Source: a virus
UHGV virus genome: UHGV-0232315
DNA: 35,654 nt
Strand: one strand, 5' to 3'
Of the stretch, positions 1-35,654 are shown in pieces. The position numbers and the translations under genes were made by a program. The first letter of the stretch is position 1, and each line of letters opens with the position of its first letter. The notes under the pieces were generated by a model. The model worked only from the letters and a program-made list of their open reading frames with translations, searched no databases and had not been told where the DNA came from.

Positions 1-60
1 CAAAAATCAGAACCCACGAATACAACCGCTCAATGGATGTCATCAGTTGAGGTGACTTTT

Positions 61-294
61 ATGCGCATTGAAATAATGATCGATAAAGAGCAGAAGATTA
101 GCCAGTCTACCCTGGACGCCCTTGAATCCGAGCTTTACCGCAATCTGCGCCCCCTGTATCCCAAAACGGTAATTCGTATCCGAAAAGGTAGCTCTAACGG
201 TGTGGAACTGACCGGACTGCAACTGGACGAAGAAAGAAAACAAGTGATGAAAATTATGCAGAAGGTGTGGGAAGACGACAGCTGGCTGCATTAA
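61..294 (+). CDS. dinI: DinI-family protein (DNA-damage-inducible protein I-like)
   Basis: Translation MRIEIMIDKEQ...QKVWEDDSWLH resembles DinI over its whole length; GAGGTG RBS 5 nt upstream of ATG 61; reading frame is also open upstream to window position 1 (alternative ATG 37). Confidence 0.7.
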   Translation: MRIEIMIDKEQKISQSTLDALESELYRNLRPLYPKTVIRIRKGSSNGVELTGLQLDEERKQVMKIMQKVWEDDSWLH

Positions 295-383
295 GAAACG
301 TTGCTGGCATCAGTATTTGATTCTGAAGCCAGCAAGGTTGAACAACGAGCAGGGCGAGGCGTTAGTGTTATCATCAAAGAATT

Positions 384-941
384 TCACATAAACATCTGGA
401 TTTGCTCGTTTTTTAGTTGGTTGATTTTTTCGCGCAATCTGATCTTTTCATCAGCTTTTTCCAAAGAGGCTGGTGACATGCAGTTAATCAAAGCGTCAAG
501 GTGCTCTGGAGATTTGATAATAAAGAACTTTTTGTATTTATTAACAAAAACGACAGAGCATTTTTTACGTTTAAGAAGCTCAATCACGTTACTCAGAGTA
601 CCCGTGCTCTTCGTATCCCAAACCATTAATCCATAATCGGCTTCTTCTGCCATTTTGAGATCTTTCGCAGTGAAAAACGCGCGAGTGCCGGCTGCATGGC
701 TAGTACTTACTACATGTACAGGCCATGAGCCAAGATTATTGCGCGGTTTTTCTGAGCTACTGAATACTGTGGCTTTTTCACATCCAAGTTCTAGCAATAC
801 GCGTTGAACAGATGCATCAACACCATTGGCATCACCAACTACAATACGAAAACGCGAGTTAACAATTTTTTTCAGACGATCCACGATGAGTGTGTCAAGG
901 TTTTTGATGGTTATTGAACCAGCAACAAATACCGTAGTCAT
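384..941 (-). CDS. DprA/SLOG-like Rossmann-fold protein (ShosA-like candidate)
   Basis: ORF-track protein with VFVAGS, IVVGDANGVD (DprA-type GxARGID-like) and STGTLSNVIE (LOG-type PGGxGT-like) motifs; ORF-track start 953 is TTG, I place the start at ATG 941 preceded by GGAG; 2 nt after the upstream gene stop (translational coupling). Confidence 0.6.
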   Translation of the reverse strand: MTTVFVAGSITIKNLDTLIVDRLKKIVNSRFRIVVGDANGVDASVQRVLLELGCEKATVFSSSEKPRNNLGSWPVHVVSTSHAAGTRAFFTAKDLKMAEEADYGLMVWDTKSTGTLSNVIELLKRKKCSVVFVNKYKKFFIIKSPEHLDALINCMSPASLEKADEKIRLREKINQLKNEQIQMFM

Positions 942-943
942 CA

Positions 944-1525
944 CTATCTCCAAGTCAAAGCTGCAACATAAATGCTTCTAACCTTAGTATAATCGTTTAG
1001 CACAGCACAAGCAGCCTCCATAGATGCGCCTGTATGGTAAAGGTCGTCAATGATAAGGACATTCCAGTTGCCATTATTCTCAATACTGTCATTAACAGAG
1101 AACGAATTACCCAGCGCCGTGATTTTCTCTTCTTTTGTATTCAGGTTCTTTAGCGAAGCCCCGCCGGGGGCTTTCAACAAGAGGTCATCGAAGCATGGTT
1201 TGCCAACTAGTTTGGCTAGTTCCTGAGCTATTTCGGTCACTGGCTGGCGTGCACGCTGATTAGATGCAGCCATTGGAACGATAAACCCGACATTGCTGAA
1301 ATGAGGAAAGGCATGCTCTGCTAGGCATTGGGCTAAAGGCTTAACTTGTGACCAATCGTTACGGTATTTAAGCTGGAAAAGAGATTCGCCTACCTCAGTA
1401 CGCTCAGTCTCAAACCGCATATGTCCCCACTCATCGTAACCAATGGGAATGCTGCGGATGCTGTGTTTATCCATCGCAAGACCTAATTCCCAATTTCCAA
1501 CAATCTGTTTTATGTTGACTTTCAT
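944..1525 (-). CDS. Phosphoribosyltransferase (PRTase)-fold protein (ShosT-like candidate)
   Basis: Classic type I PRTase PRPP-binding motif VLIIDDLYHTGASM near the C-terminus; ATG start 1525; first gene of a two-gene minus-strand operon. Confidence 0.65.
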   Translation of the reverse strand: MKVNIKQIVGNWELGLAMDKHSIRSIPIGYDEWGHMRFETERTEVGESLFQLKYRNDWSQVKPLAQCLAEHAFPHFSNVGFIVPMAASNQRARQPVTEIAQELAKLVGKPCFDDLLLKAPGGASLKNLNTKEEKITALGNSFSVNDSIENNGNWNVLIIDDLYHTGASMEAACAVLNDYTKVRSIYVAALTWR

Positions 1526-1796
1526 GGCTCACCGTTTGCTGTGTAAAACACCAAAGATTACCTCTTGTTATATTTGGTGAAAGCGAAAGTTTCATTTTTT
1601 GCAGTGGAGATCAAATGTTACTCCGTGAACATTTTTAGCAGGTGGCCTCGCTACACGGTTTGGTGTAACTACTGCATGTCTATACTGCATAAATCCGCAT
1701 GATCGTTTAAGGATCGCTCTAGTTGGGGACTGCTAGGTATGGCGGGCTTTTGCTTATGTCATGCAGGTGCATGAAAACCACTATATAAAGCGGGCA

Positions 1797-1815
1797 GGCG
1801 TGGCGGGGATACGAG
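1797..1815. other. Possible cos (cohesive end) site
   Basis: GGCGTGGCGGGGATACGAG: first 13 nt match the P2/186 19-nt cohesive-end sequence as I recall it (GGCG[A/T]GGCGGGGAAAGCA..); lies in a 423-bp intergenic region next to a CATGCA-gg-TGCATG dyad (about 1758-1771). Confidence 0.35.
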
Positions 1816-1948
1816 CGCGCGTTATGACAAATAGATGATTAGCCTGATTTATTTACAGCTGTATAAATGATCACCTTGTAATTAGGTAAGTAATGTCTTC
1901 TATTATCATTGATTTGATAGGATTAATCTGTTTTTTGAGGATTAGAGG

Positions 1949-4285
1949 ATGATTGAAGAGGTAGTTATTGACAAGGTAGGCTCATATAATGGCCCTACGC
2001 AGCTTTTACATGGACTTTCTAAATTTAACTATTTATATGGAGCTAATGGTGCAGGTAAAACAACTATAAGTAAAATTATTAATGACCCTGAACAATATCC
2101 AACATGTCCGATTAAATGGAAAAATAATATATCTTTAATAAGCTACGTATATAATAAAGATTTTGTTGAAAGAAATTTTAGTCAAGATAAAATTAAAGGT
2201 GTATTTACCCTTGGTAGCGATCTTAAGGAGGATGAAGAGAAACTAATATCTCTTAAAGAAGAAAAAAATAAGCTAATGGAATCTATTATAGCAAAGGGAA
2301 AGTTAATAGATGGTGGTGATAATGAATTAGGCGTTATTAAAAAAATCGAAGACCATGAAAAATCTTTTAAAGATTCATGTTGGAAGCAAAAAGTAAAACA
2401 TGACAATGTGTTCTCAAAGGCTTTTGAGGGATTAAGGAATAGTAGTGAAAAATTTAAAGCCAGAGTGTTGGCTGAGTATGAAAATAATACATCAGAAGTT
2501 TGCTCAATAGCAGAGTTAATTGAGAAAGCAAAAATTGTTTTTTCTACTGAATTGACATCACATGTATCAATTACAATTCCATCCTTCAATGGGATAGATG
2601 ATATTTTGAGTAGGGAAATTTGGAGTGAGCGTATTCTAGGGAAAAAAGACGTTAGTGTTTCAGACTTAATTACAATGCTCAATAACAGTGATTGGGTTAA
2701 GGAGGGTTTAACATATTTCAGTAAATCTAATCCCAAGTGCCCATTCTGCCAGCAGGATGTAAATGATAATATATTTGATAATCTTTCATCATATTTTGAT
2801 AAAACATATGAGTTAAAAAAAAGAGAAATCGATGCATTGGTTTTACAATATGAATATCAACTTAATAATATCTTGAAGGCGATAGATGATATAAGGGCGA
2901 TTAAATCTCCATTCATAAATTATGAAGTGTTTGAGGATAAGGCTAAGATAGTATTATCTGAATTAAACAAGAATTTTGAATTGGCAAAAAATAAACGCAA
3001 TTTTTTAAGTGAATCAGTTCATTTTAGTGACTTAAGTGAAGTTGTTGATGATTTTATTTCTTTTTTGAATGATTCAAATCTATTGATAGATAATAATAAC
3101 AAAATATATAGTAATAGAAAGGTAGAGGCTAGTAATCTTTCTAAGCAGATATGGGCATATATCGTAAAGGTGGAGTTAAAGTCTGAAATAACTTCTTACC
3201 GTAGCAAATCTGATAAATTTAATAGGACGTTACAAGGACTTAAATCTGGGATAGAAGAAGACAAAAAGAAGTTAATGTTAAATACTTCGGCTATTGAGGC
3301 AATTGAGTCTAATAAAACCAGTACTCTTCCAACTATTACAAAAATTAACAAGATTCTGGACTCTTATGGCTTCAAAAATTTTTACTTAAAACCCTCCGAA
3401 GATAAAAAGCATTATATGATAGTAAGAGATAGTGGAGATAATGCTCGTACAACCCTTAGTGAGGGAGAAAAGACATTTATCACTTTTTTGTACTTTTATA
3501 GCCTTGTTAGAGGGAGTGATAATGCATCAGGTGTTTTAGATGATCGTGTTGTAGTATTTGATGATCCAATTTCAAGTTTAGATAGTGATATTCTGTTTAT
3601 TGTAAGTTCGTTGATTAAAGATTTAATGGAGGATGTTCGTAAGGATGAAGGAAATATTAAGCAAATTATATTCCTTACTCATAATATTTATTTTCATAAA
3701 GAGTTGACTTTTAATACCAAAAGATCCGGTAATCAAGCAATGAAAGAGGAGACTTTTTGGATTGTAAGGAAAAAAGGGAAGGTTTCATATCTTGAAAAGT
3801 GCGAATCAAACCCAATAAAAACGTCTTATGATTTGCTCTGGTGCGAATTGAGAAGAACAGACATTAATAATAATACTATACAAAATACAATGCGAAGGAT
3901 TTTGGAGAATTACTTTAAGATATTAGGTGGGATGGATATTAGGAAGCTTGAGTGTCATTTTTATGGTGATGAAAAAATCATATTTAAATCTTTAGTGTCA
4001 TGGATTAATGATGGTTCCCATTTTGCAGGTGATGATCTTTATATGAATTTAGATACGGAGTCTGTGCAAAAATATTTAATTGTTTTTCAGAAGATATTTG
4101 AATGTAGTGAGCATACTGCCCATTACAAAATGATGATGGGTGAGTTTTATAAACCGTTAAATGAGTCACTTCATCTACAAGATGAGTTTGATATAGATGA
4201 TAGTGCGAATGATGAGTATGCTTCGTCAAAAATTGAGATAAAAGATGGAATAAACACATCTCTACATAGCAACACATATTTGTAA
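1949..4285 (+). CDS. ABC-type (AAA_13-like) ATPase with coiled-coil CxxC hook; RloC/PrrC-like candidate anticodon nuclease
   Basis: Walker A GANGAGKT (aa 32-39), Walker B/D-loop VVVFDDPISSLD, internal CPFC motif between Walker motifs, C-terminal R-x3-E..H arrangement (RRILEN ... H); very AT-rich relative to phage backbone; GAGG RBS. Confidence 0.55.
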   Translation: MIEEVVIDKVGSYNGPTQLLHGLSKFNYLYGANGAGKTTISKIINDPEQYPTCPIKWKNNISLISYVYNKDFVERNFSQDKIKGVFTLGSDLKEDEEKLISLKEEKNKLMESIIAKGKLIDGGDNELGVIKKIEDHEKSFKDSCWKQKVKHDNVFSKAFEGLRNSSEKFKARVLAEYENNTSEVCSIAELIEKAKIVFSTELTSHVSITIPSFNGIDDILSREIWSERILGKKDVSVSDLITMLNNSDWVKEGLTYFSKSNPKCPFCQQDVNDNIFDNLSSYFDKTYELKKREIDALVLQYEYQLNNILKAIDDIRAIKSPFINYEVFEDKAKIVLSELNKNFELAKNKRNFLSESVHFSDLSEVVDDFISFLNDSNLLIDNNNKIYSNRKVEASNLSKQIWAYIVKVELKSEITSYRSKSDKFNRTLQGLKSGIEEDKKKLMLNTSAIEAIESNKTSTLPTITKINKILDSYGFKNFYLKPSEDKKHYMIVRDSGDNARTTLSEGEKTFITFLYFYSLVRGSDNASGVLDDRVVVFDDPISSLDSDILFIVSSLIKDLMEDVRKDEGNIKQIIFLTHNIYFHKELTFNTKRSGNQAMKEETFWIVRKKGKVSYLEKCESNPIKTSYDLLWCELRRTDINNNTIQNTMRRILENYFKILGGMDIRKLECHFYGDEKIIFKSLVSWINDGSHFAGDDLYMNLDTESVQKYLIVFQKIFECSEHTAHYKMMMGEFYKPLNESLHLQDEFDIDDSANDEYASSKIEIKDGINTSLHSNTYL

Positions 4286-4296
4286 TTTTATTACAA

Positions 4297-4326
4297 TTGC
4301 CAGTAGCAACAATACGGTACTGGCAA
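4297..4326. terminator. Hairpin between convergent genes (possible bidirectional terminator)
   Basis: TTGCCAGTA-(12 nt loop)-TACTGGCAA perfect 9-bp inverted repeat between the ATPase gene stop (4285) and Q stop (4335); followed on + strand by ctaatatttt. Confidence 0.4.
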
Positions 4327-4334
4327 CTAATATT

Positions 4335-5363
4335 TTAGTTAAGCTCATATGGAGAAAATTCTATAAGTTTTTCCCCGAGCCATGCATTAATTTCTCTAAA
4401 TCGTTTTTGCAAAGGAATTAATTCATTTATCACAAAAACCTTACTAGCCTTCTCCACATCCCCAAATCCCCCGACATTATTAGGCATAATCCCCATCATT
4501 TGCGGTGGAACGCGGTGTGCCGCCATCATGTCATCGCGACTAACATTTTTGATATTCAGAAACTCATCCTTCGCTGCGACTTCTGATAACGGGATAATCT
4601 GAAGCCCGTCCTTTTTGCCGTTAGGTGAGTACATAAACAGGTTGCGGAAGTTGCCCGGCCCTTTGGCGCTTTTCATCGCATTGCGGAGGTTGTTCACATC
4701 CTCCTGGTTTTGCGCGGCATCGGTCATGTACATGATAAAGCCCGCATGACTGCCGTTAATGTAATACTTGCGACGGAACAGCGTGGCGGACTCGTTGAGC
4801 AGGGCTGACGGAATGGCAGAAAGATAACCGGGCAGGCCGTAGATCTCCTGATTAATATCCGGTTCCATCAGATGAAAAATGCTGCCTTTCGTGAACTGAT
4901 ACGGCTGGGTTGTCATACCGTATTGCACAAACCAGTAGGTATCCAGGTCTAATCCGCGTCGGGTGTATTTTGCCAGCGCAGGTTCAAGGGCGATCACTTC
5001 ACCGAAGCGGTTCGTGCGTTTCTCCAGATAGGCGTTGCCAAATACCAGATAGTCCTGCACAAAACGCGAAAAAGCTTGCTGGCTGAGCAGAGGATGAGGG
5101 ATATAGGTACTGGTCAGAATGTTGCACTTTACTGCAATCGGGGAACTGTGATGCACGGCAGCGCGGAAGGTGCGCGCCAGTCCGTCAAAGCTGACGGGCG
5201 GCTCATACCAACGGTCCATCTGTACGCATTCCACATAGTCCAGTAATTCTCGGCGGTCCAGAACAGGAACGGGATCGCCGAAGCTGAATGCTTCGGCTGT
5301 AGTCTGGTTTTTATGCTGGATCTGATTCGTCGCCGCAGTGCGGTTTTTCTTACTCTTTCCCAT
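4335..5363 (-). CDS. Q: Portal protein (P2 gpQ-like)
   Basis: Protein MGKSKKNRTAA... with P2 Q-like length and position; ORF-track start 5366 is TTG, ATG at 5363 overlaps the stop of P (TGATG). Confidence 0.9.
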   Translation of the reverse strand: MGKSKKNRTAATNQIQHKNQTTAEAFSFGDPVPVLDRRELLDYVECVQMDRWYEPPVSFDGLARTFRAAVHHSSPIAVKCNILTSTYIPHPLLSQQAFSRFVQDYLVFGNAYLEKRTNRFGEVIALEPALAKYTRRGLDLDTYWFVQYGMTTQPYQFTKGSIFHLMEPDINQEIYGLPGYLSAIPSALLNESATLFRRKYYINGSHAGFIMYMTDAAQNQEDVNNLRNAMKSAKGPGNFRNLFMYSPNGKKDGLQIIPLSEVAAKDEFLNIKNVSRDDMMAAHRVPPQMMGIMPNNVGGFGDVEKASKVFVINELIPLQKRFREINAWLGEKLIEFSPYELN

Positions 5364-7129
5364 CAAAAAATCTCCACAATATTGCTGGTATTGGCGGACT
5401 CGCCCTGCAGCGGTTCGTTAAACAGTGCGTGCATCGTTGCCCAGGCCAGATCGGCGTGGCTGGCTTCTTCGCTGCGGCTGGCTTCATAGGTTGGGCGGTT
5501 GCCACTGGCGGTGGTTGCGCGACGGATTGCCATAAATGACTGCGCAATGTCGGTGTGCCCGGCGTCAAACTCCAGACGGCGGTGGCTGATAATGTCGTAG
5601 GCCTTGAGTACCAGGGCGTTTTTAACGTTGGGGTTGTAGACAAACTCCCGGACGGCAGGAAAGAACGCTTTCACGTTCTCGTAAACCCCGTGACCAACGC
5701 CGGTTGAGTCGATACCGATATAAGTCACGTTGTACTGCTCGGTAAGTTTTTTGATGGCGTCAGCCTGGGCGCGGAAGTCCATCCCGCGCCACTGGTGACG
5801 CTCAAGAATGCGGAACTTACCACCCGGCACGGCTGGCGGTGCCACCACCACGCATCCGGCGCTGTCGCCGTTTTGCGTACCTTTTGCCGGGTCATAACCG
5901 ATCCACACTTCGCGCCAGCCAAACGGGCGCAGCGCCAGTGCATGAAAGTCGGTCCAGATTTCCCAGCTGTCTACCATGCACGCCTGCAGCTCGCTGAGAG
6001 GGAACACGGACGCGAGATCGTCCACAAACTCGCACATCAGCAGGTTCTGGTATTCGTCCGGGCTGTACTCCATGCGCAACTGGTCAAGGTCGAACAGGTT
6101 ACAGCCGCCGCGCACCGCATCTTCCACGGTGACTATCTGGCGGTATTGCCCGTCTGCGCACAGCAGGCCGGGGGCCAGATTTCTGTGGGACAGGTCGATG
6201 TCCACCTTATCGGCTTTGTTGCGCCCACGGTTGAACAGCGCACCGGACCAGAACGGATAAGCACTGTGTGTCAGACTGGATGGCGTGGAAAAATAGGTTT
6301 GTCGCCATTTTTTGTGAATAGCCATACCGGAAGCCACTTTGCGCAGCTCCTGGAATTTCGGTATCCAGAAATATTCATCCAGATACAGGTTGCCGTGGTA
6401 ACTCTGGGCCGTGCGGGCATTGGTGCCGAGGAAGTAAAGCGTGGCCCCGTTAGGAAGCACCATCGGATCGCCTTTCAGCTCCACCTCGACTTCTTTGGCG
6501 AAGTCGATGATGTACTGCTTAAAGACGTGGGCCTGTGCCTTACTGGCGGAAAGGAAAATCTGGTTACGTCCGGTAAGCAGAGCGTCAATCAGGGCTTCAC
6601 GGGCAAAGTAAAAGGTCGCGCCGATCTGGCGTGATTTCAGCAGGTTGCGGATGCGGTTGGTTTTTCCGGCTTCCCACCAGTGGCGCTGGTAGTTGAACAT
6701 GGAGGAATGGAAGATTTCTTCCAGCTTCTCAATCTGTTCATCGGTGAAAACATTCTTTTCCGGCTGACGGCGCGGGCCTTTGTTGCGGTTGGCGACGTTA
6801 GGGTTTAAGTCGGCTTCGTTGCCGCCATTGTTAAACTTGCCGATGCGCGCGTGGCGCTCCGACTGGCGCGCCAGCAGGTCAATCTCTTTGAAATCTTTCC
6901 CTTCTTTGTGCTCCTTCATAATGAGCTGGCAGTAGCGTGCGGCGGTGGTGAGCTGCATCTGATCCAGCGGCCCATAGTCACCCCACTTGTCGCGTTTTTT
7001 CCAGCTATGAACGGTTGCAACTTTCTCGCCCAGCATTTCAGCAATGCGGGCGACGCGGTATCCCTGAAAGTACAGCAGCATGGCCTGCCGACGGGGATCG
7101 AGATCTGCGGGTGTCAGTGTGGTGTTCAT
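5363..7129 (-). CDS. P: Terminase large (ATPase) subunit (P2 gpP-like)
   Basis: 588-aa product upstream of Q in the divergent P2 arrangement; ATG 7129. Confidence 0.9.
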   Translation of the reverse strand: MNTTLTPADLDPRRQAMLLYFQGYRVARIAEMLGEKVATVHSWKKRDKWGDYGPLDQMQLTTAARYCQLIMKEHKEGKDFKEIDLLARQSERHARIGKFNNGGNEADLNPNVANRNKGPRRQPEKNVFTDEQIEKLEEIFHSSMFNYQRHWWEAGKTNRIRNLLKSRQIGATFYFAREALIDALLTGRNQIFLSASKAQAHVFKQYIIDFAKEVEVELKGDPMVLPNGATLYFLGTNARTAQSYHGNLYLDEYFWIPKFQELRKVASGMAIHKKWRQTYFSTPSSLTHSAYPFWSGALFNRGRNKADKVDIDLSHRNLAPGLLCADGQYRQIVTVEDAVRGGCNLFDLDQLRMEYSPDEYQNLLMCEFVDDLASVFPLSELQACMVDSWEIWTDFHALALRPFGWREVWIGYDPAKGTQNGDSAGCVVVAPPAVPGGKFRILERHQWRGMDFRAQADAIKKLTEQYNVTYIGIDSTGVGHGVYENVKAFFPAVREFVYNPNVKNALVLKAYDIISHRRLEFDAGHTDIAQSFMAIRRATTASGNRPTYEASRSEEASHADLAWATMHALFNEPLQGESANTSNIVEIF

Positions 7130-9183: not shown

Positions 9184-9834
9184 ATGAGCCTGAGTCCCGC
9201 ACGGCAGCATCGCCTGCGCGTTCAGGCTGAACAGGCCGCCCGCGAGGGCGGCAGTGTTCGCCACGCGTCGGGCTATGACCTGATGCTGCTGCAACTGGCG
9301 GAAGACCGCCGCCGTCTCAAGGGCGTTCAGTCCACGGTGAAAAAAGCGGAAATAAAGGTGGAGCTGCTGCCGAAGTACGCCGCTTGGGCAGAGGGCGTCC
9401 TGGCTGCCGGAGGCACTCAACAGGATGACGTACTGATGTACGTGATGCTGTGGCGCATTGATGCCGGAGATTATGCCGGGGCGCTGGAGATCGGGCGTCA
9501 TGCCCTGCGTCATGGCTGGGTGATGCCACTGGGTAACCGCAATGTGCAGACCGTGCTGGCAGAGGAAATGGCAGACGCCGCGCAGAGCGCAATGCTTGCC
9601 GCCACCGGCTTTGATGCCGATCTGTTGTTGCAGACGCTGGAGCTGATAGACGGTCTGGATATGCCGGACCAGTCACGGGCGCGTCTGCATAAAGCGATTG
9701 GCGCTGTCCTGAGTGAAAGCAATCCGGCTTCCGCCCTTAATCATCTCAACCATGCGTTACAGCTCGATCCCCGCTGTGGCGTGAAAAAAGACAAACAGCA
9801 GCTGGAGCGCAGACTGCGCAATGACAGCCGCTGA
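9184..9834 (+). CDS. M: Terminase small/endonuclease subunit (P2 gpM-like)
   Basis: 216 aa following N in conserved order; ATG 9184. Confidence 0.85.
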   Translation: MSLSPARQHRLRVQAEQAAREGGSVRHASGYDLMLLQLAEDRRRLKGVQSTVKKAEIKVELLPKYAAWAEGVLAAGGTQQDDVLMYVMLWRIDAGDYAGALEIGRHALRHGWVMPLGNRNVQTVLAEEMADAAQSAMLAATGFDADLLLQTLELIDGLDMPDQSRARLHKAIGAVLSESNPASALNHLNHALQLDPRCGVKKDKQQLERRLRNDSR

Positions 9835-25891: not shown

Positions 25892-26944
25892 TTACGGGGT
25901 AATGCCAACCGCTGCCGCCACTTTGCCGCCACTTGGCAGCGTTGCCAGAGGATTGAAACGGAGCGCCGTTTCCAGATGATCCGGTGCCAGATGAGCGTAA
26001 CGCATAGTCATTTTTATATCGTGATGTCCGAGGATTTTTTGCAAAGCAAGGATATTTCCACCCGACATCATGAAATGTGCCGCAAACGTATGGCGCAGAA
26101 CGTGTGTCAGTTGACCGCGAGGGAGCACGATTGACGTTTTTTCCATCACGGATAAAAATTGAAAATAGCAGTCTGTGAAGAAATTGAACCCATCAAGCGC
26201 CATGATCTCTTCATAAAGCTCTTTACTGATAGGGATGCTTCTGTTTTTCTTCCCCTTCGTTCTTACAAAGGTAATTCGGTATTTAGTCACCTGTGATCGG
26301 GTAAGGTTTATTGCTTCTCGCCAGCGTGCGCCTGTGCTTAAGCATATCTTGACTACCAGTGCCAGAATTGGGTCCTGACGTTTGCAATCAGCCAGCAGTT
26401 CAACAATCTGCTCATGGGTAAGCCATGCCATCTCTTTTTCTGCGATGGTGAATTTTCGCATGTTCTCCAGTGGGTTTGGATACGACCATTCGCCCAGGCG
26501 GGATAGTTCGCTAAAAACACTACTTAGATAGCTTTGCTCCAGGTTAATGGTGACCGGGCTGGCTCCTTTCTTCCATTTCTCGCTGAAGTAGATCTCACCT
26601 GTCAGGCGTTTATCTCGATAGTGGGCAAACATTTTAGAGGTGAGATCGGTTGCAAGAGGATTGCCCAGAGCGTCAACCATCAGCAGCAATTTGTCATAGA
26701 CATGCTGCCCAGCAGTCAGAGATTTACCATGTAATTTGAACCATAGCTCAACCACGTCTTTCAGTGTTCGACGATCCACTGATTCACCTAGCCAAGGCTT
26801 TGCTTCGGTTTCTTCCATCGTGTGACGCTCAAAAGCCAGAGCTTCGCCTTTGGTGGCGAATTGTTTACGCACACGACGTCCACTACGTCCGGCGGGATAA
26901 CATTCGCACAGCCATTTTCCTGTGGTGAGTTTTCGTACTGCCAT
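25892..26944 (-). CDS. int: Tyrosine integrase
   Basis: 350 aa MAVRKLTTGKWLCECYPAGRSGRRVRKQF... with C-terminal ...HVLRHTFAAHFMMSGGNILALQKILGHHDIKMTMRYAHL catalytic region (R..H-x-x-R..Y). Confidence 0.9.
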   Translation of the reverse strand: MAVRKLTTGKWLCECYPAGRSGRRVRKQFATKGEALAFERHTMEETEAKPWLGESVDRRTLKDVVELWFKLHGKSLTAGQHVYDKLLLMVDALGNPLATDLTSKMFAHYRDKRLTGEIYFSEKWKKGASPVTINLEQSYLSSVFSELSRLGEWSYPNPLENMRKFTIAEKEMAWLTHEQIVELLADCKRQDPILALVVKICLSTGARWREAINLTRSQVTKYRITFVRTKGKKNRSIPISKELYEEIMALDGFNFFTDCYFQFLSVMEKTSIVLPRGQLTHVLRHTFAAHFMMSGGNILALQKILGHHDIKMTMRYAHLAPDHLETALRFNPLATLPSGGKVAAAVGITP

Positions 26945-27026: not shown

Positions 27027-28358
27027 TCATTGGAGCAAGAAAACTTTTAAGGTGTTTTTGAATATTCTAACAGGGTCTTCTACACCTGCATTTCCTTTTA
27101 AAATATGATAATCACTTATTTCAGCCCATCTGTTTTTTTCATCGTTTTCAGAAGGAAGTAAAGGAGAACCTTCTGGCATATATTTATAAGTTATACCAAA
27201 TAATGCATAATAGTAGATGTTGATGTTATATTGATCTGTCTGATATGGGAGTCTATTAACACCGAAGAAATTAATTATTAATTGTGCATCTATTTTATCT
27301 TCTACGTAGTTAAGGGCCAGTTCACGACCAAACGAATAAAGAATTACTGCAAGGGTTCGATAACAGCAATAGCCTGGTATAAATTTATTGCTGATTTCAT
27401 TTTGAGATAAAATTTGATAAATTTCTAGATATCTTGATAAGGTTTCAACTTCCCGTAGCGACAAGCCTTTTAGTTCGATAAATTTTTGAACTATATGAAT
27501 ACTACTTTCTCCAATTTCTTTTAGTCTTTCAGACTCGTTACATAGCATTCTAAAATGAGAGTTCGAAGCCAAAATTTTATCGTAATTGTTTTCAGTGAAA
27601 GTCACTGGCAGGCTGTAAGTGAATTTTATAAATTTATCAAGATATCTTTCTGAGTCAACACCTGCACCGTAAATATGATTTATTGATGCTTTCAATTGTG
27701 AGATGTTAGCAACTAACAAGAAGTTAAGATTTTCAGTGTCAAAAACATGTTTTATATTTTCGATGATAGAGATGGCAAAGCTTGGTTTACAACGGTCAAG
27801 TTCGTCAATGATAATTGTTATTTTATTTTCGCTAGTTAGTTCAGCAAGTACTTCCTTGAGAGCAAGCAAATGTTTCTTTGCTTCAATATGATCATCAAGC
27901 AGTGCTTCTACAGTACCATCTATAGCTGAGTTAGCCGCATCTTTAATAGCATCTTCGAATTCATCCGCAATATCATCTGCATTTTGTTTTAAAATCCACC
28001 CAGCGCCAGCTTTGAGTACAGTTTTAAGTCCAAATCTCAATGCTGGTAATGCCTTTGATATTAATTCCTTCTTTTCACTCTCTGGATATAATGCAACTAT
28101 TGCAGCCATTATAGTAAGTATGGGAGCATCATTATGATCTTCAGTAAATGCATCAATATATACTACTTTATGCCCAGATTCATTTTTTTCAATCAATGCC
28201 GCTAATTTTTTTGAAAATTCGGTTTTACCGGTACCCCAGTCCCCATCGATAACAATAGGGGATATTTTTAAGGGGGACTCGAGTAAGCTTATTATTTTTT
28301 CAGCAATGATTTTTCTATTATACTCATCTCTGTTTTCAAAAGTCATATCATTATTCAT
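27027..28358 (-). CDS. KAP-family P-loop NTPase
   Basis: Walker A GDWGTGKT (GxWGxGKT KAP signature) and Walker B IIIDELDRC; ORF-track start 28367 is TTG, I place the start at ATG 28358 after AAGG; AT-rich. Confidence 0.65.
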   Translation of the reverse strand: MNNDMTFENRDEYNRKIIAEKIISLLESPLKISPIVIDGDWGTGKTEFSKKLAALIEKNESGHKVVYIDAFTEDHNDAPILTIMAAIVALYPESEKKELISKALPALRFGLKTVLKAGAGWILKQNADDIADEFEDAIKDAANSAIDGTVEALLDDHIEAKKHLLALKEVLAELTSENKITIIIDELDRCKPSFAISIIENIKHVFDTENLNFLLVANISQLKASINHIYGAGVDSERYLDKFIKFTYSLPVTFTENNYDKILASNSHFRMLCNESERLKEIGESSIHIVQKFIELKGLSLREVETLSRYLEIYQILSQNEISNKFIPGYCCYRTLAVILYSFGRELALNYVEDKIDAQLIINFFGVNRLPYQTDQYNINIYYYALFGITYKYMPEGSPLLPSENDEKNRWAEISDYHILKGNAGVEDPVRIFKNTLKVFLLQ

Positions 28359-28369
28359 ATGAAGCAACC

Positions 28370-28555
28370 TTAGTTTTTAGAACATATTTTCTTTGACTTG
28401 CTTTGCGTTCCATCATTGCAAACGAACTTCCCATCAGATGTACAATGTGAAACTCCCCCTTTCTTACCAGAACATGGATAATTTTTTGCAAAACTTGTAA
28501 TAGGTAAAGTAATAAATAAACAAATAAGTAGGATATGTATAGATTTATAAAACAT
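28370..28555 (-). CDS. Small secreted Cys-rich, Lys-rich peptide (predicted signal peptide)
   Basis: ORF 28370-28573; start placed at ATG 28555 after AAGGA; [23 protein letters not shown] then a 38-aa mature part with 4 Cys and 8 Lys; stop lies 11 nt upstream of the NTPase ATG (28358). Confidence 0.5.
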
Positions 28556-28578
28556 ATTTATTTCCTTATACATTAATT

Positions 28579-31917: not shown

Positions 31918-32924
31918 ATGCTATCGATCCGCGTTGCTTTGCCTCAGGCACCATTAACGTCATCACTACTTCTGGTGGCAAAGATAGTCTCGCTCAATGG
32001 CTAAGAGCCATTGAAAACGATGTTCCGCATATTTCTGTATTTGCCGATACGGGTCATGAACATCCACAGACAATAGAATATCTGGATTATCTGGAATCAA
32101 AGCTGGGCAAGATTATTCGCGTCAAAGCGGATTTCACACGCCAGATAGAAGGGAAACGTAAATTCATTGCGGAAAAGTGGCCCATTTCTCTCGTTGAGGA
32201 ATGTGGTATGTCGACAGATGAGGCTGAGGAACGTATTTACCGGGCACTGGAAATCCTTAAACCAACCGGCGTTCCGTTTCTTGATTTGTGCATGTGGAAA
32301 GGTCGCTTCCCTTCAACAAAAGCTCGTTTCTGCACTTTTGAACTGAAACATGAACCAATACGTACACAGGTAATCGATCCAGCTCTGGATGAATACGATG
32401 AGGTAATCAGCTGGCAAGGAGTCCGGGGGCAGGAATCACCGGAACGTGCATTGTTGCCTGAGTGGGAGGACGATGCAGACAATACTCTGGGGCTGCATGT
32501 TTATCGTCCGATCCTTAATTGGCTGCATGAGGATGTGTTTGCTATTGCCAAACGTCATGGCATTAAGCCTAACCCCCTTTATATGCAGGGATGCAGTCGT
32601 GTCGGTTGTATGCCATGCATTCATGCTCGCAAGTCAGAACTTGGAGAGATTTTCCAACGCTGGCCAGAAGAAATCCGCCGAGTGGCTGAGTGGGAAAGAC
32701 TGGTTGCGGAATGTTCAAGACGTGGCAATTCAACGTTCTTTCCATCCACGCATGATCCGCGCCGTGCTGAAAAACGGATCGAAGTCATAACTGTTGATGC
32801 TTATGGTATTGAAACTTATCGGGACTGGGCCTTAACGACTCGGGGCGGTATGCAGTTTGACCTGCTGGCAGGCATGAATGATAAAGCGGTGTGCAGCAGT
32901 GTATATGCAGGAGTCTGTGAGTGA
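31914..32924 (+). CDS. PAPS-reductase/DndC-like PP-loop ATP pyrophosphatase family protein
   Basis: PP-loop TSGGKDS near the N-terminus, C-terminal Cys cluster [10 protein letters not shown]; ATGA overlap with the dam stop. Confidence 0.7.
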
Positions 32925-35362
32925 CAGAGATCAGCACAGGCCGTCTTGCCGATCCATTTGTCAGTGTAACTTCCGGTAGCATTGAGAATTCTGCCGGGGG
33001 TTATTCGTGGAATTTACCTAAGAAAGCCATTAACCCTTATCTGGACCCGGCGGAAGTTGCGCCGGTTTCTGCGCTTTCAAACCTGATCACTCTGTACGCT
33101 ACCGATAACGAGCAGGAACAACTGCGCCGCGAGGCACTGAGTGATCAGGTCTGGGAGCGTTATTTCTTTAATGAATCCCGTGATCCTGTCCAGCGCGAAA
33201 TGGAGCAGGATAAGCTCATTAGCCGGGCAAAGTTGGCGCATGAGCAGCAGCGTTTTAACCCGGACATGGTCATTCTGGCAGACGTCAGCGCCCAGCCCTC
33301 CCATATCAGCAAGCCGCTGATGCAACGTATTGAATACTTCAGCAGCCTGGGCAGGCCAAAGGCTTATTCCCGCTATTTACGTGAGACGATTAAGCCATGT
33401 CTGGAACGACTGGAGCATGTACGCGACAGCCAGCTATCTGCATCTTTTCGTTTTATGGCAAGCCATGTAGGGCTGGACGGCCTGCTGATTCTGCCTGAAA
33501 TGAGTCAGGATCAGGTGAAACGCCTGTCTACCCTTGTCGCTGCGCATATGAGCATGTGCCTTGATGCAGCTTGTGGTGATTTGTATGCCACCGATGACGT
33601 TAAGCCAGAAGAAATCCGCAATACATGGGAAAAGGTGGCAGCGGAAACCCTGCGTCTGGATGTCATCCCGCCTGCGTTTGAGCAACTCCGTCGGAAAAGA
33701 AACCGCCGTAAACCCGTGCCCTATGAACTCATTCCGGGTTCGCTGGCGCGTATGTTGTGCGCCGACTGGTGGTACCGGAAATTATGGAAAATGCGTTGCG
33801 AATGGCGGGAAGAGCAGTTGCGTGCTGTCTGCCTGGTCAGCAAAAAAGCATCTCCCTATGTCAGCTATGAAGCCGTGATGCATAAACGTGAGCAGCGCCG
33901 CAAGTCACTGGAGTTTTTCCGTTCTCATGAACTGGTGAACGAAGAGGGCGACACGCTGGATATGGAAGACGTGGTAAACGCCAGCAGCAGCAACCCGGCG
34001 CACCGCCGCAATGAGATGATGGCCTGTGTTAAAGGTCTGGAGCTTATCGCGGAAATGCGCGGTGACTGCGCCGTTTTCTACACCATTACCTGTCCGTCAC
34101 GTTTCCATTCTACGCTCAATAACGGCAGACCAAACCCAACCTGGACAAATGCGACGGTAAGACAAAGCAGCGATTATCTGGTCGGCATGTTTGCTGCATT
34201 TCGTAAGGCGATGCACAAAGCCGGGTTGCGCTGGTATGGCGTGCGGGTGGCTGAGCCGCATCATGACGGTACAGTTCACTGGCACCTGTTGTGTTTCATG
34301 CGCAAAAAAGACCGCCGCGCCATTACTGCATTGTTGCGTAAGTTTGCCATCCGTGAAGACCGCGAGGAACTGGGTAATAACACTGGTCCACGCTTTAAAT
34401 CTGAGCTGATAAACCCGCGCAAAGGAACGCCGACAAGCTACATCGCGAAATACATCAGTAAGAACATTGACGGGCGTGGTCTGGCTGGCGAGATCAGCAA
34501 GGAAACGGGTAAATCCCTGCGTGATAACGCTGAATACGTTAATGCCTGGGCGTCTCTGCATCGTGTACAGCAATTCCGCTTCTTTGGTATTCCGGGACGT
34601 CAGGCTTACCGTGAACTTCGCTTGCTGGCTGGTCAGGCGGCAAGGCAACAGGGTGACAAAAAAGCAGGTGCGCCGGTACTGGATAACCCGCGTCTTGATG
34701 CCATTCTGGCTGCTGCTGATGCTGGTTGTTTTGCCACCTACATCATGAAGCAGGGCGGCGTACTGGTTCCCCGCAAATATCACCTCATCAGAACCGCTTA
34801 TGAAATCAACGAAGAGCCAACCGCCTATGGCGATCACGGTATTCGTATTTATGGCATCTGGTCACCCATTGCAGAGGGCAAGATCTGCACTCATGCAGTG
34901 AAGTGGAAAATGGTTCGTAAGGCCGTTGACGTTCAGGAGGCGGCAGCCGACCAGGGCGCTTGCGCCCCTTGGACTCGTGGCAATAATTGTCCCCTTGCTG
35001 AAAATTTGCACCAACAAGGGAAAGACAAATCAGCTGATGGGGATACCAGGACGGACATTACCCACATGGATGACAATGAGTTGCACGATTACCTGCACAG
35101 TATGAGCAAAAAAGAGCGCCGGGAACTGGCTGCAAGGTTACGCCTGGTGAAACCGAAACGGCGTAAAGACTACAAACAGCGAATTACAGACCATCAGCGA
35201 CAGCAGCTCGTCTATGAACTGAAGTCCAGAGGATTTGATGGTAGCGAGAAAGAGGTCGATTTACTCCTTCGCGGCGGCAGTATTCCGTCAGGAGCAGGCC
35301 TGCGTATCTTCTATCGGAACCAGCGTTTGCGGGAAGATGATAAGTGGCGGAACCTGTATTAA
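32921..35362 (+). CDS. A: Replication initiation endonuclease (P2/186 gene A-like, rolling-circle HUH type)
   Basis: 813 aa; GTG start overlapping the upstream stop; HWHLLCF (HUH-type motif) and tyrosine pair YIAKYISK. Confidence 0.85.
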
Positions 35363-35515
35363 TTACGCGGGTTAACAATTCGTGCTCTTAATAATACCCG
35401 GTATATCAGGCTGATGAACGTAAAAAAACGTTTTACATCAGTAAGATTATTGTATACTGTGAATATAAACAGTGGTTATATATACAGTATTGCGTGTGGT
35501 GTCATAGGAGGAAAA

Positions 35516-35654
35516 ATGCAGGACTATTTTTTGGAGTCTTTGAAGCTCCAGCGCATTGATTTTTTTCTTAAGCTTGTCGCGGCTAGTGAGTGTAGTGATG
35601 AAGAGAAGGGGCTGGCTCTGCAGTGGGTTTCTGAACTAACAGATGAACTCATGG
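35516..35654 (+). CDS. Hypothetical protein, 3'-truncated by the window end
   Basis: AGGAGG RBS, ATG 35516, frame open to the last base (MQDYFLESLKLQRIDFFLKLVAASECSDEEKGLALQWVSELTDELM...). Confidence 0.5.
   Translation, partial: MQDYFLESLKLQRIDFFLKLVAASECSDEEKGLALQWVSELTDELM

What the first reader, a model, noticed from the sequence alone, without database searches (positions are those of the whole stretch)
1797..1815. cos-like sequence places the accessory islands on both sides of the genome ends
GGCGTGGCGGGGATACGAG resembles the 19-nt cohesive ends of P2/186 as I recall them (first 13 nt identical to my memory of the 186 sequence). If this is cos, the ShosTA-like pair lies at the right genome end and the RloC-like gene lies between cos and the portal gene. 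A CATGCA-gg-TGCATG dyad sits about 25 bp upstream.
Basis: partly seen in the sequence, partly recalled or inferred. Interest (0 to 1): 0.35.

Follow-up and report, generated by a model that had tools for sequence, protein, structure and literature searches.

The report
Ordinary P2-family phage cos site
The 19-base sequence is the packaging cut site (cos) of a P2-like temperate phage, identical to one already mapped by sequencing in a near-identical E. coli prophage, and the defence-gene islands on both sides of it are the usual, already described arrangement.

Summary
It is already known biology.

- **The site.** Window 1797-1815 reads GGCGTGGCGGGGATACGAG. It matches the 186 cohesive end at 15 of 19 positions (the first 13 are identical) and the P2 end at 14 of 19.
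- **Published precedent.** The same 19-mer is annotated as a putative cos site in Salmonella phage SEN8. It was also located by read start-site analysis and PhageTerm as the cos of the inducible E. coli HS prophage. That prophage's large terminase is 99.7% identical to the window's.
- **The conserved block.** The 19-mer sits in a block of about 150 bp (1673-1821). This includes the 55-bp P2/P4 core and GCAT motifs at -123, -110, -100 and -28, placed as in P2, 186 and P4 (first motif one base off in P2). Similarity falls to background on both sides of the block.
- **Genome context.** The window is a closed 35,654-bp P2-like genome. A ComF/ShosT-like pair lies to the left of cos, at the virion right end. 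An AAA_13/RloC-like ATPase lies between cos and the portal gene.
- **How common this is.** Cargo on both sides is the commonest arrangement among relatives carrying this 19-mer. The region is the published gpA-gpQ defence hotspot.

Interest is low.

The parts
1797..1815 (+). 19-nt cohesive-end sequence (cosN equivalent). The inferred cuts are between 1796/1797 on the top strand and 1815/1816 on the bottom strand, giving 5' overhangs.
   Evidence: Identical to the cos given for the E. coli HS prophage (PMC8008629 Table S4) and to the SEN8 'putative cos site'. 15/19 to 186 and 14/19 to P2. Cut polarity is taken from the U32222 annotation.
1673..1821 (+). The whole conserved cos block, about 150 bp, running from -125 to +25 relative to the first base of the 19-mer.
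   Evidence: BLAST matches to 78 phage records cover only this stretch. An anchored conservation profile over 121 IMG/VR sites drops to background outside it. It is present in 1,249 of 5,426 complete E. coli genomes.
1767..1821 (+). 55-bp core shared by P2-family phages and P4: 30 nt to the left, the 19-mer, then CGCGCG.
   Evidence: 41/55 to P2, 42/55 to 186, 41/55 to P4 and 54/55 to the E. coli HS prophage. The 55-bp core concept of Ziermann and Calendar 1990 is taken as cited in PMC5694545. Cartapus NC_070909 5-57 is annotated 'putative cos site'.
1759..1774 (.). Dyad TCATGCA-gg-TGCATGA. Its right half carries the GCAT motif at -28.
   Evidence: I3. It is nearly invariant in the 121 IMG/VR sites. 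The left half is present in 186, partly in P4, and absent in P2.
1674..1700 (+). Distal cluster of three GCAT motifs at -123, -110 and -100 (1674-1677, 1687-1690, 1697-1700). Inferred terminase small-subunit recognition array.
   Evidence: The offsets are the same in the window, 186 and P4; P2 has -122, -110 and -100. The same layout appears in six P4-like satellites from other genera. Protein binding is inferred, not shown.
1730..1755 (+). Terminator-like hairpin plus T-run inside the cos block. Its left arm is degenerate in this window.
   Evidence: The consensus in relatives is GGCCCGCCAG..CTGGCGGGCTTTT; the window has GGACTGCTAG..ATGGCGGGCTTTT.
295..1672 (-). Left accessory island, which lies at the virion right end. 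It holds a ComF/ShosT-like PRTase (944-1525) and a 189-aa partner (384-953).
   Evidence: ShosT E = 9e-9, PsyrT 1e-7, ComF 2e-5; the partner hits PsyrA at 0.019 only. GC is 42.8% against 49.8% for the genome, and there is no homology to the HS prophage.
1822..4334 (+). Right accessory island, which lies at the virion left end between cos and the portal gene. It holds a 778-aa AAA_13 / PDC-S06, RloC/PrrC-like ATPase (1949-4285).
   Evidence: AAA_13 1e-163, PDC-S06 1e-266, PrrC 5.5e-11. A CPFC motif is present in the middle region. GC is 30.4%.
4335..5366 (-). Portal gene (P2 gpQ homologue).
   Evidence: PF04860. 93.8% identical to the HS prophage portal.
5363..7129 (-). Large terminase (P2 gpP homologue), the enzyme expected to cut at cos.
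   Evidence: Terminase_6N, Terminase_6C and Terminase_5. 99.7% identical to the HS prophage protein.
9184..9834 (+). Small terminase (P2 gpM homologue), the expected cos-recognition subunit.
   Evidence: PF05944 8e-40. 98.5% identical over 202 aa to the HS prophage protein.
37..294 (+). DinI-like gene, the last conserved gene before the left island. Together with gpA (32921-35362) it marks the right arm of the virion map.
   Evidence: PF06183. The junction of the window's end and start aligns contiguously with the HS prophage.

Best explanation
Window 1673-1821 is the functional cos site of a complete, circularly permuted P2-like (Peduoviridae) phage genome of 35,654 bp.

During lytic growth, the phage's P2-type terminase recognises this block of about 150 bp. 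The terminase consists of the small subunit encoded at 9184-9834 and the large subunit encoded at 5363-7129. It makes two nicks 19 nt apart, on the top strand 5' of G1797 and on the bottom strand after 1815. The packaged linear chromosome therefore runs 1797 -> 35654 -> 1 -> 1815 and carries complementary 19-nt 5' overhangs that re-anneal after injection.

Shown here: the sequence is identical to a cos located from sequencing reads in a prophage with the same terminase; the family architecture is conserved; the synteny is as expected. Inferred: the exact nick positions and polarity (from the P2 and 186 annotation), and that the phased GCAT motifs at -123, -110, -100 and -28 are the small-subunit binding sites.

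Only 6 nt to the right of the 19-mer and about 125 nt to its left are conserved. DNA beyond those limits is free to vary, so foreign low-GC cassettes sit on both sides. The ComF/ShosT-like pair lies at the right genome end. The RloC-like ATPase lies at the left end, ahead of the portal gene.
For: - **Family match.** The 19-mer matches 186 at 15/19 (first 13 identical) and P2 at 14/19. The 55-bp core matches P2, 186 and P4 at 41-42 of 55.
- **Mapped in a relative.** Exactly this 19-mer is reported as the cos of the inducible E. coli HS prophage, found by read start-site analysis and PhageTerm at NC_009800 926016-926034. I confirmed the sequence at that coordinate. That prophage's TerL is 99.7% and its TerS 98.5% identical to the window's, and the core is 54/55 identical.
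- **Annotated in relatives.** The SEN8 record starts at this 19-mer and calls it a putative cos site. Cartapus annotates the same core as a putative cos site.
- **Sharp conservation footprint.** Conservation runs from -125 to +25 in 121 IMG/VR sites, with background on both sides.
- **Synteny.** In 115 of 120 loci the site has gpA/DinI on its left and portal/TerL on its right.
- **Conserved motif phasing.** GCAT offsets match those in 186 and P4 exactly, and P2 to within one base (-122 for -123), despite otherwise diverged flanks. P4-like satellites, which share only cos with their helpers, keep the same layout.
- **Intact genome.** It is closed and carries portal, terminase, capsid, integrase and gpA genes.
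Against: - No virion-end or read data exist for this particular genome.
- The SEN8 and Cartapus annotations say 'putative' and rest on homology.
- The E. coli HS table gives the 19-mer and its coordinates but not the strand polarity of the overhang.
- The distal part of the block (-130..-31) is only 73% identical to the HS prophage.
- The hairpin inside the block is degenerate in this window.
- A role for the GCAT motifs in terminase binding is inferred from conservation alone. I could not read Ziermann and Calendar 1990 to see what was mapped.
Confidence: 0.95

Rival explanations
1. The block is a cos relic. It is homologous to a real cos but no longer cut, because the element is a defective prophage or because the changes in the distal part and the hairpin have inactivated it.
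For: The left arm of the hairpin and several distal positions differ from the consensus. No activity data exist for this genome.
Against: The 55-bp core differs at one position from the mapped HS cos, and all four GCAT motifs are in place. The genome is closed and has full-length terminase, portal, capsid, tail, integrase and gpA genes. The same island arrangement occurs at 98.4% identity in two E. coli chromosomes, which fits recent mobility.
Confidence: 0.03
2. The block is conserved mainly for another role, such as a transcription terminator for the gpA-DinI operon, a promoter for the cargo, or a recombination anchor for cassette exchange. On this reading the resemblance to cos is secondary and the true cut site lies elsewhere.
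For: A terminator-like hairpin lies inside the block. The left and right cassettes assort independently around it.
Against: The most invariant part is the 19-mer and its immediate flanks, not the hairpin. The same sequence was found as read start and end pile-ups in the HS prophage. No other cos-like site exists in the window. P4-like satellites keep the same block next to psu, where no gpA operon ends. These other roles may co-exist with cos, but they do not replace it.
Confidence: 0.015
3. The resemblance is chance similarity of a GC-rich 19-mer to the P2 and 186 ends.
For: Only 14-15 of the 19 positions match the two classical sequences.
Against: None of 100 shuffles gave a match even with 3 mismatches. 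The flanks also align with P2, 186 and P4, with the GCAT motifs in the same phase. The site is in the syntenic position in 115 of 120 loci.
Confidence: 0.005

Closest known systems
cos of the inducible P2-like prophage of E. coli HS (Zünd et al. 2021, Microbiome 9:77, Table S4), together with the putative cos sites of Salmonella phage SEN8, Fels-2, SopEPhi and Escherichia phage Cartapus
   Same: The 19-mer is identical and the 55-bp core is 54/55 identical. The position between DinI and the portal gene is the same. The terminase is essentially the same (TerL 99.7%). Cargo genes lie on both sides.
   Different: Only the cargo genes and some positions in the distal part of the block differ (73% identity over -130..-31).
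cos of coliphage 186 (U32222) and of P2 (AF063097)
   Same: Both have a 19-nt end starting GGCG(A/T)GGCGGGGA, followed by (T/C)GCGCG and preceded by TGCAT(T/G)AAAACC...AAG(C/T)GGGC(A/G). 186 has GCAT motifs at -123, -110, -100 and -28; in P2 the first is at -122. The site lies between the right-arm accessory genes and the portal gene.
   Different: Positions 14-19 differ (TACGAG against AAGCAT or AAGCAC), so the overhangs would not be fully complementary to those of P2 or 186. P2 and 186 have no gene between cos and the portal gene (187-196 bp). P2 carries old and tin only on the other side.
cos of satellite P4 and P4-like satellites
   Same: The architecture is the same, with the 55-bp core and the GCAT phasing. 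Variable defence cargo lies adjacent (Rousset et al. 2022).
   Different: The satellites encode no terminase. None of the six satellite loci sampled carries the ATACGAG variant; they have AAAGCAC, AGAGCAT or ATAGCAT.
gpA-gpQ cos-proximal defence hotspot of P2-like phages (Rousset et al. 2022; earlier Dodd and Egan 1996 and Nakayama 1999, as cited in PMC5694545)
   Same: The region between gpA and gpQ has variable, low-GC content and holds homologues of defence systems, here a ComF/ShosT-like PRTase pair and a PDC-S06/PrrC-like ATPase.
   Different: Nothing essential differs. This window is one more combination of cassettes.
lambda cos (cosN plus cosB)
   Same: In both, a staggered-nick site sits next to a one-sided array of short repeats presumed to bind the small terminase subunit.
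   Different: There is no sequence similarity. The overhang is 12 nt in lambda against 19 nt here. Subsite roles are established in lambda and are only inferred here.

Membership tests
P2-family cos site | A 19-nt cohesive-end sequence with the conserved 5' part GGCG(A/T)GGCGGGGA. | tested here: met
   13/13 identical to 186 and 12/13 to P2.
P2-family cos site | A 55-bp core shared by P2, 186 and P4 (Ziermann and Calendar 1990, as cited in PMC5694545). | tested here: met
   41-42 of 55 identical to P2, 186 and P4, with no gaps needed.
P2-family cos site | Position between the right-arm genes (gpA side) and the portal gene, which reads towards cos. | tested here: met
   gpA/DinI lie on the left and portal/TerL on the right on the minus strand, in the window and in 115 of 120 related loci.
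P2-family cos site | A cognate P2-type terminase (gpM and gpP homologues) encoded in the same genome. | tested here: met
   PF05944; PF03237, PF17289 and PF06056.
P2-family cos site | Virion DNA ends at this sequence with 19-nt 5' overhangs. | not testable with these tools
   There are no reads or virion DNA for this genome. For the HS prophage, which has the identical 19-mer and a 99.7% identical TerL, the site was found by read start-site analysis and PhageTerm.
P2-like cos-proximal defence hotspot (gpA-gpQ) | Variable gene content between gpA and gpQ among otherwise collinear phages. | tested here: met
   Gap sizes are 156-3531 bp on the right and 205-3211 bp on the left. The left cassette differs while the right ATPase is the same.
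ShosTA / PsyrTA toxin-antitoxin defence pair | A toxin with a phosphoribosyltransferase-like domain. | tested here: met
   ShosT 9e-9, PsyrT 1e-7, ComF 2e-5. The Pfam Pribosyltran hit is only 0.01, below the cut-off.
ShosTA / PsyrTA toxin-antitoxin defence pair | A DprA-like antitoxin partner. | tested here: inconclusive
   The 189-aa ORF gives only PsyrA E = 0.019. There is no Pfam, NCBIfam or PDB match. No structure was predicted.
RloC / PrrC anticodon nucleases | An ABC/Rad50-like ATPase head with an inserted coiled coil bearing CxxC, plus a C-terminal PrrC-like nuclease region. | tested here: inconclusive
   Full-length AAA_13 hit 1e-163. The PrrC model matches residues 460-704 at 5.5e-11. 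CPFC is present in the middle region, and an RRILENYF...GSH stretch lies near the C-terminus. That these are the catalytic residues rests on my recollection of PrrC, not on a test. There is no NCBIfam or PDB match.

The most novel reading that the evidence does not exclude
Two readings are not excluded. First, the four phased GCAT motifs (-123, -110, -100, -28) could be the so far undefined small-terminase (gpM) binding array of the whole P2/P4 family. Second, the variable 3' third of the overhang (positions 14-19: TACGAG, AAGCAC/T, GAGCAT, TAGCAT) could define cohesive-end classes. Such classes might track terminase lineages and limit which satellites a helper can package, or which co-infecting genomes can join end to end. 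I could not check whether either point is already in the older P2 literature.
Probability: 0.2. Interest if true: 0.3.

Novelty: already known. Interest (0 to 1): 0.1.

Why it matters
It fixes the physical map of this phage. The virion left end is at 1797 and the right end at 1815. Both islands next to cos are therefore terminal cargo in the known gpA-gpQ hotspot; the third island, between the integrase and repressor genes, is not terminal. This helps annotation: the cos block is not annotated in any RefSeq row shown, although 1,249 of 5,426 complete E. coli genomes contain it. It also helps in delimiting defence cassettes. It does not change what is understood about P2-like phages.

Tried and rejected
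- **Satellites with the same end.** I looked for P4-like satellites carrying the identical 19-mer, as independent evidence of function. The IMG/VR scan returned no locus with P4 psu, sid, delta or alpha homologues: 115 were P2-like and 5 could not be classified. A Psu-based scan of genomes gave six satellites, all with other end variants. The idea is neither supported nor refuted.
- **Island proteins.** PDB sequence searches gave no matches for the ATPase and only chance-level hits (E > 0.5) for the two left-island proteins. NCBIfam added only 'ComF'.
- **Literature that was unavailable or unhelpful.** The Christie and Calendar P2 review was not held under the PMC id I recalled. Ziermann and Calendar 1990 was not among the papers found in the library, so the 55-bp core is cited second-hand. 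The 2026 P2-like diversity paper says nothing about cos. The P4 cosmid paper gave no minimal-cos data.
- **Promoter scan.** It found no more sites than the shuffled controls, so I made no promoter claims for the islands.
- **Chance resemblance.** I considered and rejected this.
- **Searches not run.** I ran no large protein homology searches or structure predictions for the island proteins. They would not change the verdict on cos.

Full report
**Observation**

Window 1797-1815 on the plus strand reads GGCGTGGCGGGGATACGAG. It is unique in the window even when three mismatches are allowed, and none of 100 shuffled sequences gave a match.

The deposited ends of the two classical phages are GGCGAGGCGGGGAAAGCAC (P2, AF063097 1-19, annotated cosL) and GGCGTGGCGGGGAAAGCAT (186, U32222 1-19, annotated cos). 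The first 13 nt equal 186, with 15/19 identity to 186 and 14/19 to P2 overall.

The dyad is also real, and its arms are 7 nt rather than 6: TCATGCA-gg-TGCATGA at 1759-1765 and 1768-1774. It ends 22 nt before the 19-mer.

**What the window is**

The window is a complete P2-like genome. The relevant genes are listed below.

| Gene | Coordinates | Strand |
|---|---|---|
| DinI-like | 37-294 | + |
| Portal | 4335-5366 | - |
| Large terminase | 5363-7129 | - |
| Small terminase | 9184-9834 | + |
| Integrase | 25892-26944 | - |
| gpA replication protein | 32921-35362 | + |

- The closest phage records are Klebsiella phages Kp48xx-2 and KP12, and Escherichia phage Cartapus, at about 96% identity.
- The same left end of the window occurs at 98.4% identity in two E. 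coli chromosomes.
- Joining the window's end to its start gives a sequence that aligns without a break to the E. coli HS prophage (693 bp, 96.8%). The window is therefore a closed circle cut inside the small ORF between gpA and DinI.

**The site in relatives**

A 391-bp query around the finding matches 78 phage records, but only over window positions about 1673-1821.

In an alignment with Fels-2, SopEPhi, Yersinia phage MLG42 and a Klebsiella prophage, the 19-mer and the following CGCGCG are invariant. Similarity stops 6 nt after the 19-mer.

An exact-match scan of IMG/VR found at least 120 contigs with the 19-mer.
- Anchoring all 121 sites on the motif shows high conservation from about -125 to +25. 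Composition is at background level on both sides.
- In 115 of the 120 loci, gpA and/or DinI lie to the left on the plus strand, or portal and terminase lie to the right on the minus strand.

**Comparison with P2, 186 and P4**

The flanks align as well as the 19-mer does.
- To the left, the window has TGCATGAAAACC...AAAGCGGGCA. 186 has TGCATTAAAACC...AAAGTGGGCA, and P2 and P4 have TGCATTAAAACC...AAGCGGGCG.
- To the right, all four have (T/C)GCGCG.
- The stretch from -30 to +25 (window 1767-1821) is 55 bp long and 41-42 of 55 identical to P2, 186 and P4. It corresponds to the 55-bp core attributed to Ziermann and Calendar 1990 in PMC5694545.
- GCAT motifs lie at -123, -110, -100 and -28 in the window, 186 and P4. 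In P2 they lie at -122, -110, -100 and -28. The DNA between them is otherwise poorly conserved.
- Six P4-like satellites from Enterobacter, Tatumella, Citrobacter, Kluyvera and Photorhabdus, plus one P4 copy, show the same layout with other variants of positions 14-19.

**Published evidence for this exact sequence**

- The SEN8 genome announcement names ggcgtggcggggatacgag as its cos site (PMC5427200). The record KT630647.2 begins with it, annotated 'putative cos site'.
- Cartapus NC_070909 annotates positions 5-57, the same core, as 'putative cos site, homologous to the cos of P2 phage'.
- Most important, Zünd et al. 2021 (PMC8008629, Supplementary Table 4) list 5'-GGCGTGGCGGGGATACGAG-3' at NC_009800 926016-926034 as the cos of the mitomycin-inducible E. 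coli HS prophage. The stated source is 'StartSite analysis/phageTerm'.
- I confirmed that the sequence is at that coordinate.
- That prophage is close to the window: large terminase 99.7%, small terminase 98.5% (over the 202 aa available), major capsid protein 99.1%, portal 93.8%, and the 55-bp core 54/55 identical.

**Mechanism**

From established knowledge of P2 and 186, and from the U32222 annotation ('top strand cut at 5' end and bottom strand cut at 3' end'), terminase nicks the two strands 19 nt apart and leaves 5' overhangs.

Applied here, the mature chromosome starts at 1797 and ends at 1815 after running once round the circle. The identity of the site is shown. The nick positions and polarity are inferred by homology. 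The idea that the phased GCAT motifs bind the small terminase subunit is my inference from their conservation.

**The islands**

Against the HS prophage, homology ends at 292 (the end of DinI), reappears only at 1674-1821, and resumes at 4418 inside the 3' end of the portal gene.

| Region | GC content |
|---|---|
| Whole genome | 49.8% |
| Left island, 295-1672 | 42.8% |
| Right island, 1822-4334 | 30.4% |

- **Left island.** It carries two overlapping minus-strand ORFs. ORF 944-1525 matches ShosT (9e-9), PsyrT (1e-7) and ComF (2e-5). ORF 384-953 gives only a marginal PsyrA hit (0.019) and nothing in Pfam, NCBIfam or PDB. 'ShosTA-like' is thus plausible but only half supported.
- **Right island.** It carries one 778-aa protein with a full-length AAA_13 match (1e-163), a PADLOC PDC-S06 match (1e-266) and a PrrC match over residues 460-704 (5.5e-11). 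It also has a CPFC motif in the middle region. 'RloC-like' is a fair description, not a proven membership.

**How usual this is**

- Among IMG/VR loci with the identical 19-mer, the gap from cos to the portal gene is at least 500 bp in 77 of 86. The gap from DinI to cos is at least 500 bp in 42 of 78. Both are occupied in 29 of 53.
- SopEPhi, Fels-2, SEN8, the HS prophage and a Klebsiella prophage all have genes on both sides.
- The two sides assort independently. E. coli strain 2018-11-3CC has the same ATPase (WP_061357951.1) on the right but DarT plus a macro-domain protein on the left.
- The cos block occurs in 1,249 of 5,426 complete E. coli genomes, with no annotated feature under it in the rows shown.
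- The literature already describes this. Rousset et al. 2022 define the cos-proximal gpA-gpQ hotspot. A 2026 NAR paper confirms it on thousands of elements. PMC5694545 cites Dodd and Egan 1996 and Nakayama 1999 for the cosL-gpQ position as a place where foreign genes are picked up.

**Verdict**

The feature is an ordinary, already-described P2-family cos site in the known defence hotspot. Its value is for annotation only.

Noticed in passing
window 27027-28573 (-): There is a third low-GC island (32.4%) between the integrase and the repressor. It holds a KAP-family P-loop NTPase (PF07693 4e-51; PADLOC PDC-S20 1e-171; weak QatA/PifA hits) and a 67-aa ORF of the PRK10040 family. This matches the minor integrase-to-primase hotspot mentioned in the 2026 NAR paper.
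   Followed up: partly
window 35255-35654 joined to 1-400: The window is a circular permutation. Its end and start join without a gap or repeat inside the small ORF between gpA and DinI, as shown by contiguous alignment to the E. coli HS prophage.
   Followed up: yes
window 1725-1755: The GC-rich terminator-like hairpin inside the cos block is GGCCCGCCAG..CTGGCGGGCTTTT in most relatives. Here it has a degenerate left arm (GGACTGCTAG..ATGGCGGGC). In this window the adjacent island is transcribed away from cos on the minus strand, so a plus-strand terminator may be under less constraint.
   Followed up: no
L138 (E. coli 2018-11-3CC) and L139 (E. coli D2), compared with window 1-4500: The right-hand ATPase cassette is the same protein accession in strains whose left-hand cassette differs: DarT plus macro domain plus an IS remnant in one, the ComF-like pair in the other. 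The two sides of cos are therefore exchanged independently.
   Followed up: partly
window 4335-4417: Nucleotide homology to the HS prophage resumes only at 4418, about 28 codons inside the 3' end of the portal gene. The right island's breakpoint therefore appears to include the portal C-terminus.
   Followed up: no
L133-L137 (P4-like satellites of Enterobacter, Tatumella, Citrobacter, Kluyvera, Photorhabdus): About 165 bp downstream of psu these satellites carry a cos with the same architecture but other end variants: GGCGTGGCGGGGAGAGCAT and, in Photorhabdus, GGCGTGGCGGGGATAGCAT. Variation is concentrated in positions 14-19 of the overhang.
   Followed up: partly
L083 3439-4374 and 5791-6730: One metagenomic IMG/VR contig has two copies of the cos block in inverted orientation within a 940-bp inverted repeat (92% identity). 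It is either two related prophages lying head to head or an assembly artefact.
   Followed up: partly
window 1735-1746, 1788-1795, 1796-1807: The motif (T/A)GGCGGG(C/G) recurs three times in the block: in the right arm of the hairpin, just before the nick, and inside the 19-mer (D1 and D2). Its significance is unknown.
   Followed up: no
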